Position numbers: made by a program. This document shows positions 6,201 through 9,200 of a DNA stretch of 10,287 nucleotides, piece by piece (positions within the stretch are counted from its first letter, which is position 1; every line of letters begins with the position of its first letter). The stretch covers positions 1-10,287 of the IMG/VR virus record IMGVR_UViG_2541047728_000006, one strand, 5' to 3'. The stretch is from a virus. Its lineage: Duplodnaviria > Heunggongvirae > Uroviricota > Caudoviricetes.

Positions 6201-9200
6201 TGCCCAATCAGAGAATCGTTACAAACAAACTTTCCATAAGTAAAACCAAAACTATCAGTTCCAACCTCAGCGACATTCATATTTGCAGATTTACCCCAAG
6301 AAGCTGGAGTTGCTGAATTCAACATGTAGTTGGTTCGCTGACCTTCAATCAATAAACCTTCTTTTTCAAATCGTGGCTCATTAATTTCCGCCGTTTTCAG
6401 TTCGCCAGATTTGTTGATATATGTTGCCGTTGATGCGCGACTGAAATTAACCTGTTTATCACTGGCAACCTGAACCACATTATCGCCAATCTTCACTTTT
6501 TTATAACCCGGAGAATAGCCCGTAATCATATCCAGCGAATCATTAAAGGGTATCCACACATCCGGCAGCGGCTGTAAAACATATCTGTACGGCTCTGCTG
6601 TCTGGTTTGCGTATTCTCTGGCAGCATCTTCACTTGCTTTTGCTGCCGTCTGGCTTGCTGCCGATGCTTTCGCCGAGTTCGCCGCCGCTGTTTCGCTCAC
6701 CTTTGCGTTGGCTTCACTGTCTTTGGCATTCGTCTCACTGGTTTTCGCTGCCGTCTGGCTGGATTTTGCGTTTTTTTCGCTGGCCTTTGTGGCTGTCTCG
6801 CTATTTTTCGCGCTGGTTTCTGATTTTTTGGCTGCTGTCGCGGAGTTTGCCGATGCAGTCTGCGAGGCCGCTGCCGCCTGTGCGCTGTTAGCTGCATTCG
6901 TTTCTGAGGTTTTCGCCGCATTCTTCGATGAGGCTGCTGCCGTTTCGGATTTCTTTGCCGCCGCTGCACTCTGTGATGACGCTCCGGCATGACGTGCCAC
7001 TTCATTCACCATCAGCTCAAAACGGCGCAGTGCCTCCGGACGAACATCATCCTCCGTCATGGCGCCGAGAAAATCATTCAGCGTACCTGGTCTGGAACCT
7101 TCATAGACGGTAATGGTCCCGGCATGTGAAGGCGGAAAATCTTCAACCAGCAGGGTGACGCTGTACTGGCCATACTCAACATCCATGCTGTAACGCCCGG
7201 CTTCATCCGGATTTTCAGAGGCCACCGTGTTCACCACCACCGTGCTGCTGGTCCGTCTGGCCTTCAGCACAATGGTGCAGTTCTGTACTGGTTTTCCTGT
7301 GCCATCTTTAAGCACGCCAGAAATTTTTACTGTCATACTTTTCCACCAATAAAAAAAGCCCGCAGCAGTGACGCCACGGGCTTCAGGACAGTGTAACTTT
7401 ACGTTTCCTCAAACGCAGTTCACCCCATAAGGCGGATGAACCTGCGTATCATAACAATATTTACAGAAGATAAATCGGCGTCTGTTGTCAGAAACGGTAT
7501 CCGATACCAACAATAAATGCATCCGTTCGCCAGTCGCCACTACCGGAACCTTCATAAGCAATATCAATGGTCACGGATTCGGTCGGGTTAAACTGCACGC
7601 CAGCTCCCCACGCCAGAGACGTGTTGCTGTGGCGATCGTCATCACTTCCGGTCAGCACATCGTGCGTTTTCCCCTTGTTGTCAGTTACGCGGAGATAATC
7701 CCCGGAGAACGTCGACACACGGCTGTAAGCCACACCTGCCATCGCATAAGCACTGAACCATTCATTCACGCGTACAGATGGCCCCGCCATCACGCTGAAC
7801 CAGCGGTTACGCACTGAATCTTCATGCCAGCGGGTATCGCTGTAGTGCGTTTTTTGCTCATCCTCAGCATTGGCATAACTGAAGGACGTAATCAGCCCCA
7901 GCGCGTCCGTAAACTCATAACGGTATTTCACGTTAATCCCGTTCAGATTATCGCTGCCTGGCATATCAGTGTGGGTCTGAAGATACCCGGCGCTTAGTGT
8001 GGACTGATGCTCTGCTGCGCTCGCTGGCGTACCAGCGGCAACCAGCCAGACTACTGCGGACAGAATAACAGCACATAATTTACGCATAATTACCTCTCGC
8101 TTTTCTGCAATAAAAAAGGCGCCATTTCTGGCGCCCGTATTGGGGTTATAAAATTCAGCTAATCGTGATGCCTGCAGTGGCTTTCTTCATCACAACAACC
8201 AGCAAATCGCTGATACTTGCTGTGGGATACCAGCCATTTACCCACCATGCTGATACAGAAAACTCCAGCGTCATGTCGCCGCGACCAGCAGGCATATCAA
8301 TAACACCACTGTAAACCAGCGTATTATCCATCGCGGTACGGTTATAAATTTCAGCACCGTTTTTCTTCACTATCAGGCGGCATGACGAATAAGTATCGCT
8401 GTTCTCCCGCTCATGTCTGGCACCGCTGAAAGCCACCGCCGGAATAACAATCTGCCGGTTAAACGGCTGATCGTCATAAACCCTGACGGTAATGGTTCCT
8501 GATGGCCAACGCTTCGGTGCACGGGAGTCACGAGGGAAAGCCTTACCCACTGTTTTAACGAGATCGCCTTCAATCTGGTTTGCAGACAGTTTCCCTCTGA
8601 TGACACAGTTCTTGTTAATGGTGACATTATTGAGCGTGCCGGTATTCGCCGTGATGGCTCCACTGATATCCGCATTGCGGGCTGTCAGCCTGCCATCCGG
8701 CGTCAGGGAAAACGTCGGAGGATTGCCGGATGACGTGATGCTCACCGCAAACAGTCGCTTCAGGAACACGTCGTTCATGAACAGCTGATTCCCCTGCGCC
8801 ACAAACAGCGGCGTGGTGTTGCCGTTCTCCGGGGTAATCATCGCAATGCGATCGGCCTGCAGCAGAATGTTACTCAGGGTCTGACCATCAACATCCTCAA
8901 TCCCCGCGCCAATCCCGGCCACATAGGGAATACCGTTTTTTGTTTTCTGCACCTTCAGCATATACATGGCATTCAGCTCATTGCGCGTGTCTGACTGAAC
9001 CCGCTGGATTTGCTGTATGGTCACGGCCTGGTCACCCAGCTTTTTATCCGTGGTCGAGGTAATTTCACTCCCTTTTTTATCCACGTACTGGCGGACCTGT
9101 GCTATCTGTCGGGCGTTTTCTGACTGCCCCTGGCTGACAGTCTGTGAGATTTCACTGCTCACCCGGTCCACTTTCTGGCTCACCTGCGCGATGGCCAGTG

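What the first reader, a model, noticed from the sequence alone, without database searches (positions are those of the whole stretch)
7349..8135. lom moron bracketed by hairpin/T-tract terminators
The Lom (Ail/PagC/Rck/OmpX-family) gene sits between J and stf with an intrinsic-terminator-like hairpin directly upstream (8111-8135, only about 24 nt before its start) and another downstream (7349-7383). That insulates it from the late tail operon and fits the moron model of independently expressed lysogenic-conversion genes. Ail/Lom-family proteins are associated with adhesion and serum resistance. The upstream terminator leaves no room for a promoter between it and the SD, so any lom promoter must lie within the 3' end of J or expression relies on antiterminated read-through.
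Basis: partly seen in the sequence, partly recalled or inferred. Interest (0 to 1): 0.5.

Follow-up and report, generated by a model that had tools for sequence, protein, structure and literature searches.

The report
Prophage lom gene between two terminators
This is the ordinary J-lom-stf segment of a lambda-like prophage in E. coli: the outer-membrane gene lom does sit between two conserved terminator hairpins, but lambda has the same layout and it is already annotated in related phages.

Summary
On the minus strand, a full-length Ail/Lom gene (7488-8087) lies between the 3' part of J and a side-tail-fibre gene. The window's two top-listed terminator-like sites flank it (stems 8136-8117 and 7384-7355). 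Both are real conserved elements. 106 of 106 related loci keep the upstream hairpin plus T tract, and 99 of 100 keep the downstream one. Three of the eight upstream stem pairs show compensatory changes. Lambda has unrelated hairpins at the same two positions.

The arrangement is already known. GenBank records for phages 434 and mEp460 annotate both terminators, and reviews treat lom as a textbook moron.

The "insulated, independently expressed" reading is only partly supported:
- No promoter-like site precedes lom in eight divergent loci.
- GC content is not anomalous.
- stf, which cannot be autonomous, has the same terminator-abutting-RBS geometry.
- An EPEC prophage with an identical junction shows lom RNA at late-gene background.
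- Lambda Lom is reported to rise sharply late in infection.

The best reading is a passenger cassette in the late operon. Antiterminated polymerase reads through its terminators, and expression in lysogens is at most weak. Interest is low.

One side observation: the 103-nt lom-stf spacer carries an extended -10-like motif and might encode a small RNA. This is speculative.

The parts
8155..10287 (-). 3' part of the tail-tip host-specificity gene J (runs off the window end)
   Evidence: Pfam Ig_J, Ig_J_second, Phage_Tail_Tip and Ig_GpJ_C. Annotated gpJ in the E. coli chromosome that matches at 99.6%.
8109..8136 (-). Intrinsic-terminator-like hairpin between J and lom. Stem 8136-8117 (GGGCGCCA-GAAA-TGGCGCCT), then TTTTTTATT.
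   Evidence: Present in 106 of 106 related loci. Compensatory changes at 3 of 8 pairs, 95.8% of cells paired, 0 of 500 shuffles reach the observed score. The positional equivalent in lambda has a different sequence. Annotated as a terminator in phages 434 and mEp460.
8093..8098 (-). lom Shine-Dalgarno sequence GAGAGG, inside a 24-nt spacer that is identical in 16 of the 18 distinct lom-upstream sequences aligned
   Evidence: Read from the sequence and alignment A4.
7488..8087 (-). lom: Ail/Lom-family 8-stranded outer-membrane beta-barrel protein, 199 aa, with a signal peptide ending ASA and a C-terminal Phe
   Evidence: PF06316 full length, E 4.6e-128. PDB lambda Lom 9wso E 3e-48; Ail 3qra and OmpX about 1e-19.
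7385..7487 (-). 'Type B' lom 3' spacer, 87 nt longer than in lambda. Contains the extended -10-like TGTTATGAT (7456-7448) and a stable hairpin (7447-7413).
   Evidence: Present in 1587 of 5426 complete E. coli genomes, never annotated in the rows listed. Function unknown.
7348..7384 (-). Intrinsic-terminator-like hairpin after lom. Stem 7384-7355, T7 at 7357-7351. It directly abuts the stf SD (GGTGGA, 7347-7342).
   Evidence: 99 of 100 related loci keep a terminator here. Lambda equivalent at L001 1213-1234. Annotated in 434 and mEp460.
5276..7336 (-). Side-tail-fibre gene (stf-like, 686 aa). A late gene that depends on read-through of both terminators.
   Evidence: PF08400 phage_tail_N, E 1.3e-67. 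Annotation.

Best explanation
The window holds the right end of a lambdoid prophage in an E. coli chromosome, next to btsSR. In it, lom is a passenger cassette of the form [hairpin-T tract][SD-lom][3' spacer][hairpin-T tract], inserted at the J/stf junction of the late tail operon.

Both hairpins are functional Rho-independent terminators. Shown here: their structure, their conservation and the compensatory changes. Inferred: that they actually terminate.

During lytic growth, Q-type antiterminated polymerase from the late promoter ignores them. J, lom and stf are then co-transcribed, and this is when most Lom is made. This step is inferred from established lambda biology, from the identical terminator-abuts-RBS geometry at stf, and from the reported late rise of lambda Lom.

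In the lysogen, unmodified polymerase stops at these sites. The tail-fibre genes stay silent, and any lom mRNA is confined to a monocistronic unit. Lysogenic lom expression from this J-linked arrangement is weak or conditional. It would have to start at a non-consensus promoter in the 3' end of J or at the J-lom junction and then pass the upstream terminator, which acts as an attenuator.

Lom itself is an OmpX/Ail-type surface barrel. Published roles are adhesion and, when overexpressed, blocking lambda infection.
For: Gene identities.

The terminators are real:
- They are the two sites listed first in the window scan, which found 23 sites against 11 expected.
- Fold z-scores are -3.2 and -3.65.
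- 106 of 106 and 99 of 100 related loci keep hairpin plus T tract.
- Upstream stem changes are compensated: GC to AU in 4 sequences with one GU intermediate, CG to UA in 7, AU to UA in 1. 95.8% of cells are paired against 35-62% for slid registers, and 0 of 500 shuffles reach the observed score.
- Lambda has non-homologous hairpins at both positions.

Read-through is required: the stf ATG lies 14 nt after the T run of the downstream terminator.

Terminators placed immediately before late tail genes are also annotated in HK97 (before I and J) and N15 (before genes 21 and 25).

No promoter was found.

Stand-alone family members (933W lom, Gifsy-2 lom homologue, Yersinia ail) lack an upstream hairpin-plus-T-tract terminator. 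The 933W and Yersinia ones have visibly AT-rich 5' regions of about 100 nt.

Expression proxies:
- EPEC PP6, with the identical junction, gives baseMean lom 2.0, J 15.0, stf 7.0, against pasB 482 and E2348C_1441 205 (PMC8550237 Table S2).
- Lom rises dramatically late, and lysogen levels are too low to exclude lambda-vir (PMC12366544).
Against: - Lambda lom is repeatedly reported as transcribed in lysogens (PMC1151598; PMC7067206). Some promoter must therefore exist, at least in lambda.
- Consensus promoter scans are weak evidence. They also find nothing convincing upstream of the 933W-type lom, which is reported as constitutively expressed in phi24B.
- The EPEC data cover one condition only: the one sheet retrieved here, the activating condition, pooling wild-type and delta-hfq libraries. 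Counts are very low.
- The prophage's antiterminator gene is outside the window, so read-through is inferred, not shown.
- Termination efficiency cannot be derived from sequence.
Confidence: 0.6

Rival explanations
1. Classical autonomous moron. lom has its own regulated or non-consensus promoter in the last few hundred bases of J or at the J-lom junction. It is expressed mainly from the repressed prophage as a lysogenic-conversion gene. The flanking terminators insulate this unit from the late operon.
For: Lambda lom is reported as expressed in lysogens. A downstream terminator is present. lom shows presence/absence among relatives: HK97 lacks it. Lom homologues occur at other genome positions. 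Failing a consensus promoter scan does not exclude activator-dependent promoters.
Against: No promoter-like site is found in eight divergent loci; all score below the shuffle median. Any transcript starting in J must cross a strong conserved terminator. GC content is not anomalous. lom RNA is at late-gene background in EPEC PP6, which has an identical junction. lom was not detected in one lambda lysogen array study. stf needs read-through of both sites, so they cannot insulate during lytic growth.
Confidence: 0.3
2. The hairpins are not terminators but RNA stability or processing elements within the long late transcript. They would act as 3'-exonuclease barriers that protect J and lom segments, or as a 5' stabiliser of lom mRNA, setting relative protein yields.
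For: Compensatory changes show selection on RNA or DNA structure but do not say which function. Both hairpins lie exactly at gene boundaries.
Against: The T run directly after the stem is kept in all but one of the loci with flanking sequence, including the non-homologous lambda hairpins. An exonuclease barrier does not need a T run, whereas intrinsic termination does. The two functions are not mutually exclusive.
Confidence: 0.08
3. The hairpins are chance inverted repeats with no function.
For: Simple pattern scans give about 11 terminator-like hits per window by chance.
Against: They are the two sites listed first in the scan. 0 of 200 shuffles fold as well. They are conserved in about 100 loci with compensated substitutions. 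They recur with a different sequence in lambda.
Confidence: 0.01

Closest known systems
Bacteriophage lambda J-lom-orf401(stf) region (NC_001416 18,903-19,650)
   Same: Same gene order and strand. There is a hairpin plus T tract between J and lom (lambda 18,920-18,935 plus TTTTATTAT) and between lom and stf (19,612-19,633 plus TTTTT). Each directly abuts the next gene's SD. From my own memory, not verified here: Luk and Szybalski (1983, Mol Gen Genet 189:289) described tandem t'J terminators downstream of J in the late operon.
   Different: Lom is only 44% identical. The upstream hairpin sequence is unrelated. The lambda lom-stf spacer is 64 nt against 151 nt here.
Phages 434 (OL657226), mEp460 (JQ182728), PhiR49_2 (PV340570) and PhiR40_1
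   Same: Lom is 83-98% identical. The upstream hairpin is homologous, with compensated stem changes. In the 434 and mEp460 records both flanking hairpins are already annotated as rho-independent terminators. PhiR49_2 is 98.6% identical across the whole 1.3-kb region.
   Different: 434 and mEp460 have the short lambda-type lom-stf spacer and a different J C-terminus.
Morons of lambdoid phages (concept from HK97/HK022; review PMC3594210)
   Same: An extra, non-essential gene lies between conserved tail genes, with its own downstream terminator, and is absent from a related phage (HK97). Lom is cited as a moron product.
   Different: There is no recognisable own promoter and no GC anomaly. A terminator lies upstream rather than a promoter.
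Stand-alone Ail/Lom genes: 933W/phi24B lom, Gifsy-2 lom homologue, Yersinia ail
   Same: Same protein family, followed by an intrinsic terminator.
   Different: They have no upstream terminator. The 933W and Yersinia genes have visibly AT-rich 5' regions of about 100 nt. phi24B lom is reported as constitutive and uncoupled from phage regulation.
Accessory genes at the J/tail-fibre junction in other siphophages (N15 genes 22-24, including cor)
   Same: Accessory membrane or exclusion genes are inserted after J and followed by a terminator just before the tail-fibre gene. Lambda Lom blocks lambda-vir when overexpressed.
   Different: The proteins are unrelated. In this dataset Lom types are not coupled to J receptor-binding-domain types.

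Membership tests
Ail/Lom (PF06316) outer-membrane beta-barrel family | Full-length match to the family HMM above the curated cut-off | tested here: met
   425 bits against a cut-off of 23, residues 1-199 on profile 1-199. Also matches lambda Lom 9wso, Ail 3qra and OmpX 1qj8.
Ail/Lom (PF06316) outer-membrane beta-barrel family | N-terminal Sec signal peptide and C-terminal aromatic residue typical of OMP barrels | tested here: met
   Read from the translation: MRKLCAVILSAVVWLVAAGTPASA|AEH... and ...GIGYRF. No signal-peptide predictor was run.
Intrinsic (Rho-independent) terminator | GC-rich stem, short loop, immediately followed by a T (U) run | tested here: met
   Upstream: 8 bp (6 GC), loop 4, T6. 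Downstream: 12-13 bp (7 GC), T7.
Intrinsic (Rho-independent) terminator | Structure maintained by selection (conservation with compensatory change) | tested here: met
   Three of 8 pairs have changes on both sides, 95.8% of cells are paired, 0 of 500 shuffles reach the score. 106 of 106 and 99 of 100 loci keep the elements.
Intrinsic (Rho-independent) terminator | Releases transcripts made by unmodified RNA polymerase | not testable with these tools
   Needs Term-seq or in vitro transcription.
Moron (autonomous accessory transcription unit in a phage genome) | Extra gene between conserved neighbours, absent from related phages | tested here: met
   HK97 has J followed directly by stf. N15 has other genes at that position. 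Lom homologues occupy other positions in Gifsy-2 and 933W.
Moron (autonomous accessory transcription unit in a phage genome) | Own promoter upstream of the gene | tested here: inconclusive
   No sigma-70-like site on the minus strand. Best PWM hits in 600 nt upstream fall below the shuffle median in eight loci. Only 24 nt separate the terminator from the ATG. The same scans also miss a promoter for the constitutively expressed 933W-type lom.
Moron (autonomous accessory transcription unit in a phage genome) | Own terminator downstream | tested here: met
Moron (autonomous accessory transcription unit in a phage genome) | Base composition different from the flanking phage genes | tested here: not met
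   GC: lom 0.53, J part 0.56, last 600 nt of J 0.51, first 400 nt of stf 0.54, whole stf 0.475.
Moron (autonomous accessory transcription unit in a phage genome) | Expressed from the repressed prophage | not testable with these tools
   Literature proxies conflict. Lambda lom is reported as expressed and as not detected. EPEC PP6 lom, with an identical junction, is at late-gene background.
Lambda late-operon internal terminators read through by Q antitermination | Same position and orientation as the lambda J-lom and lom-stf hairpins, with an essential late gene downstream | tested here: met
   stf lies downstream on the same strand.
Lambda late-operon internal terminators read through by Q antitermination | A Q-type antiterminator and late promoter in the same prophage | not tested
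   They lie outside the 10.3-kb window.

The most novel reading that the evidence does not exclude
The 103-nt 'type B' spacer between lom and its terminator (7385-7487) may be a small-RNA gene rather than a plain 3' UTR.

Evidence that suggests this:
- It has an extended -10-like promoter, TGTTATGAT (7456-7448). The same position is the perfect consensus TGTTATAAT in the 92%-identical P-EibA/SW07163 variant.
- That promoter would start transcription around 7440-7442 and give an RNA of about 90 nt, ending at lom's terminator with its U7 tail.
- The 100-nt stretch folds unusually well (z -4.8).
- The element is present, and unannotated in the rows listed, in 1587 of 5426 complete E. coli genomes.

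Evidence that weakens it:
- The motif alone is weak: 2 hits in the window against 0.59 expected, and 10% of shuffles give at least 2.
- There is no Rfam match.
- No entry for this intergenic region appears in the EPEC Hfq RIL-seq tables.
- The inner hairpin may simply be a decayed older terminator.
Probability: 0.12. Interest if true: 0.45.

Novelty: already known. Interest (0 to 1): 0.15.

Why it matters
It matters little as a discovery. It is a textbook prophage module, and public records of close relatives already annotate both terminators.

The check does sharpen one point. For the J-linked form of lom, sequence and available expression data favour a late-operon passenger that antiterminated polymerase reads through. 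They do not favour an insulated, autonomously expressed lysogenic-conversion unit. This fits recent evidence that Lom acts late, possibly to block re-adsorption of progeny phage.

The promoter that gives the reported lysogenic expression of lambda lom seems never to have been mapped: one study says outright that little is known about its regulation, and the paper library searched here turned up nothing further. A simple 5'-end mapping experiment would settle this.

Tried and rejected
1. Promoter search upstream of lom. The consensus scan and my own approximate -35/-10 PWM on 500-600 nt upstream in eight divergent loci gave nothing above shuffled controls. One recurring TTGAYA at about -205 (its paired -10-like hexamer ends near -180) comes from the conserved VIDMPAG codons of J and has no conserved -10. 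I rejected it as a promoter.

2. Whether the lom-stf spacer is the phi24B 24B_1 RNA locus (PMC4426718). That RNA lies in the 933W-type lom-vb_24B_43 region, a different genome context, and I saw no resemblance between its sequence and the window's spacer when reading the two. No alignment was run.

3. Whether the spacer is the EPEC sRNA PasB. The PasB probe sequence is absent from the window and from the EPEC J-lom-stf locus. PasB maps antisense in the I-J intergenic region.

4. Rfam at E <= 1 on 7000-8500: only a chance snoRNA hit.

5. GC anomaly of lom: none.

6. Co-variation of Lom type with J receptor-binding-domain type, as a test of a receptor-specific exclusion role. One Lom cluster occurs with four J C-terminal clusters, so there is no strict coupling. 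Linkage makes the test weak.

7. The primary papers were not in the library: Liu et al. 2013, a lambda review that I tried to fetch by a PMC id recalled from memory, and Luk and Szybalski 1983. The t'J terminator reference therefore rests on my memory only.
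Full report
**What is in the window.**
The minus strand reads: 3' part of J (8155-10287), lom (7488-8087), a 686-aa side-tail-fibre gene (5276-7336), then two small ORFs. A DinI-like gene lies on the plus strand. The E. coli chromosomal genes btsS, btsR, yehS and yehR follow. The whole window matches E. coli chromosomes at 99.6%. The J-lom-stf part matches the induced phage PhiR49_2 at 98.6%. The finding therefore sits near the right end of an integrated lambdoid prophage.

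**Checking the observation.**
The 199-aa product is a full-length Ail/Lom protein (PF06316, E 4.6e-128). Its closest solved relatives are lambda Lom (9wso), Ail and OmpX.

The terminator scan lists 23 sites against 11.0 +/- 3.2 expected.
- Upstream: stem 8136-8117 (GGGCGCCA/GAAA/TGGCGCCT) followed by TTTTTTATT.
- Downstream: stem 7384-7355 followed by T7.

Both fold far better than shuffles (z -3.2 and -3.65, 0 of 200 shuffles). Only 24 nt, containing the SD GAGAGG, separate the upstream T run from the lom ATG.

**Are the hairpins real elements?**
I collected about 130 related loci from phage records, species-representative genomes and viral contigs. A hairpin plus T tract lies within 80 nt upstream of lom in 106 of 106 loci. 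One lies within 180 nt downstream in 99 of 100; the exception has a single stem mismatch.

Among 18 distinct upstream sequences, the stem changes in a compensated way:
- G-C to A-U in 4 sequences, with one G-U intermediate.
- C-G to U-A in 7.
- A-U to U-A in 1.

95.8% of cells are paired, against 35-62% for slid registers, and 0 of 500 shuffles reach the observed covariation. Lambda, whose Lom is only 44% identical, carries sequence-unrelated hairpins with T runs at exactly the same two positions. The T run is retained everywhere. That argues for termination rather than mere RNA stabilisation.

**Already known.**
The GenBank records of phage 434 and mEp460 annotate rho-independent terminators on both sides of lom. 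Reviews list Lom as a prophage-expressed moron product. From memory, not verified here, the lambda literature describes tandem t'J terminators downstream of J (Luk and Szybalski 1983).

**Testing the moron/insulation reading.**

*Features met:*
- lom is an optional insert. HK97 has J followed directly by stf, and N15 has other genes at that position. Lom homologues sit elsewhere in Gifsy-2 and 933W.
- It has a downstream terminator.

*Features not met or unclear:*
- There is no GC anomaly: 0.53 against 0.56 and 0.475.
- There is no promoter-like site. None occurs on the minus strand. In eight divergent loci the best PWM hit in 500-600 nt upstream is below the shuffle median. The caveat is that the same kind of scan also finds nothing for the 933W-type lom, which is reported as constitutive.

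Stand-alone family members have no upstream terminator, and the 933W and Yersinia ones have visibly AT-rich 5' regions of about 100 nt. The terminator-abutting geometry is therefore specific to the J-linked form.

The same geometry recurs at stf, where the T run ends 14 nt before the ATG. stf is a late structural gene that cannot be autonomous. Annotated terminators immediately before late tail genes also occur in HK97 and N15. These sites therefore cannot insulate during lytic growth. Antiterminated polymerase must read through them. This step is inferred from established lambda Q biology, because the antiterminator gene lies outside the window.

**Expression evidence from the literature.**
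- Lambda lom is reported as transcribed in lysogens. [quoted passage not shown]
- EPEC E2348/69 prophage PP6 has an identical J-hairpin-SD-lom junction and a lom-stf spacer that differs by 1 nt. In its RNA-seq table, baseMean values are lom 2.0, J 15.0, stf 7.0 and the next gene 16.9. The sRNA pasB gives 482, and the adjacent expressed genes E2348C_1441-1445 give 205-580. lom is at late-gene background there. This is one condition (activating), with wild-type and delta-hfq libraries pooled.
- A 2025 study found that overexpressed lambda Lom strongly blocks lambda-vir. Citing ribosome profiling, it states that lysogen levels are too low for exclusion and that Lom rises dramatically late in infection.

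**Conclusion on mechanism.**
The best-supported model is a lom cassette embedded in the late operon and bounded by two genuine intrinsic terminators. Antiterminated polymerase overrides them, and this is when most Lom is made. Unmodified polymerase in the lysogen obeys them. stf then stays silent, and any weak lom transcript remains monocistronic. The autonomous-moron model remains possible (about 0.3) if an unconventional or activator-dependent promoter lies in the 3' end of J. In that case the upstream hairpin would act as an attenuator.

**Side observation.**
The window's lom-stf spacer is a 151-nt 'type B' variant, against 64 nt in lambda and most relatives. Its 103-nt core occurs in 1587 of 5426 complete E. 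coli genomes and was unannotated in every row listed.

It contains TGTTATGAT (7456-7448), an extended -10-like motif. The same position is the perfect TGTTATAAT in the diverged P-EibA/SW07163 variant. A stable hairpin and lom's terminator follow, and the 100-nt stretch folds with z -4.8. This could be an RNA of about 90 nt.

The case is weak for four reasons:
- The motif is only marginally unexpected: 2 hits against 0.59 expected.
- Rfam has no match.
- The element is neither PasB nor 24B_1.
- No RIL-seq entry exists for that intergenic region.

I rate it at about 0.12.

**Verdict.**
The feature is ordinary and already known, so interest is low.

Noticed in passing
window 7385-7487 (-), especially 7456-7448 and 7447-7413: The lom-stf spacer is 87 nt longer than in lambda. 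It carries an extended -10-like TGTTATGAT (perfect TGTTATAAT in the P-EibA/SW07163 variant) followed by a stable hairpin and then lom's terminator. The 103-nt core is in 1587 of 5426 complete E. coli genomes and was unannotated in every row listed. It could be a small RNA or a decayed older terminator.
   Followed up: partly
window 7485-7514 (+): A promoter-like site (TTGTCA-18-AACAAT, 9 of 12 matches) lies on the plus strand over the lom stop codon, pointing antisense into lom. It is one of only five such sites in the window and is probably chance.
   Followed up: no
window 1-10287: Sigma-70-like promoter matches are fewer than expected (5 found against 10.7 +/- 3.3 in shuffles). Terminator-like sites are about twice the expected number (23 against 11.0 +/- 3.2).
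   Followed up: no
window 1-4300: The left part of the window is E. coli chromosome: yehR, yehS, btsR and btsS. The prophage/chromosome junction lies between btsS (ends about 3829) and a DinI-like gene (4329-4577, +) that has its own terminator at 4669-4688.
   Followed up: partly
window 6586-6982 (-), inside stf: A strong AT-skew anomaly (down to -0.70) corresponds to an Ala/Ser/Thr/Lys-rich low-complexity repeat (..AAKTSETNA..SAKNSETATKASEKNAK..) in the tail-fibre shaft. No tfa-like gene follows stf, only two small ORFs of 92 and 98 aa. The 98-aa ORF has a sub-threshold holin-like Pfam hit.
   Followed up: partly
loci L021-L033: Lambda lom loci, all with the same identity to the query as lambda and, where enough flank was available, with lambda's exact flanking sequence, occur on short low-coverage contigs. 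The assemblies are labelled Neobacillus, Kitasatospora, Leeuwenhoekiella, Pseudomonas, Desulfosporosinus, Shewanella, Bradyrhizobium and others. This is almost certainly lambda DNA contamination or spike-in in those assemblies.
   Followed up: no
L115 (IMGVR_UViG_2534681810_000012), just upstream of the lom hairpin: In this locus the sequence upstream of the hairpin is not J. Its translation (...[29 protein letters not shown]) looks like a transposase C-terminus. The IS3-family assignment is my own reading by eye and was not tested. The junction lies a few nt before the hairpin, so the hairpin-lom unit stayed intact.
   Followed up: no
L019 and L040 (Shigella flexneri SFBU0723 chromosome): These lom copies are truncated (108 and 46 codons), presumably by frameshift or nonsense mutation. 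They still keep the intact upstream hairpin, T tract and SD.
   Followed up: no
EPEC E2348/69 NC_011601 1466261-1466343 (outside the window): The Hfq-dependent sRNA PasB maps antisense in the I-J intergenic region of the same type of prophage (PP6). The window starts inside J, so any equivalent would lie just beyond its right end.
   Followed up: partly
Lom protein alignment A3 (window 7491-8087): Differences between the window's Lom and its 83-84% identical relatives cluster in three stretches: the signal peptide, residues about 36-47 and residues about 73-81. From the OmpX/Ail fold, as I recall it, the latter two would be extracellular loops; this was not checked against a structure. The rest of the barrel is nearly invariant. 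One relative (L007) looks chimeric between two Lom types.
   Followed up: no
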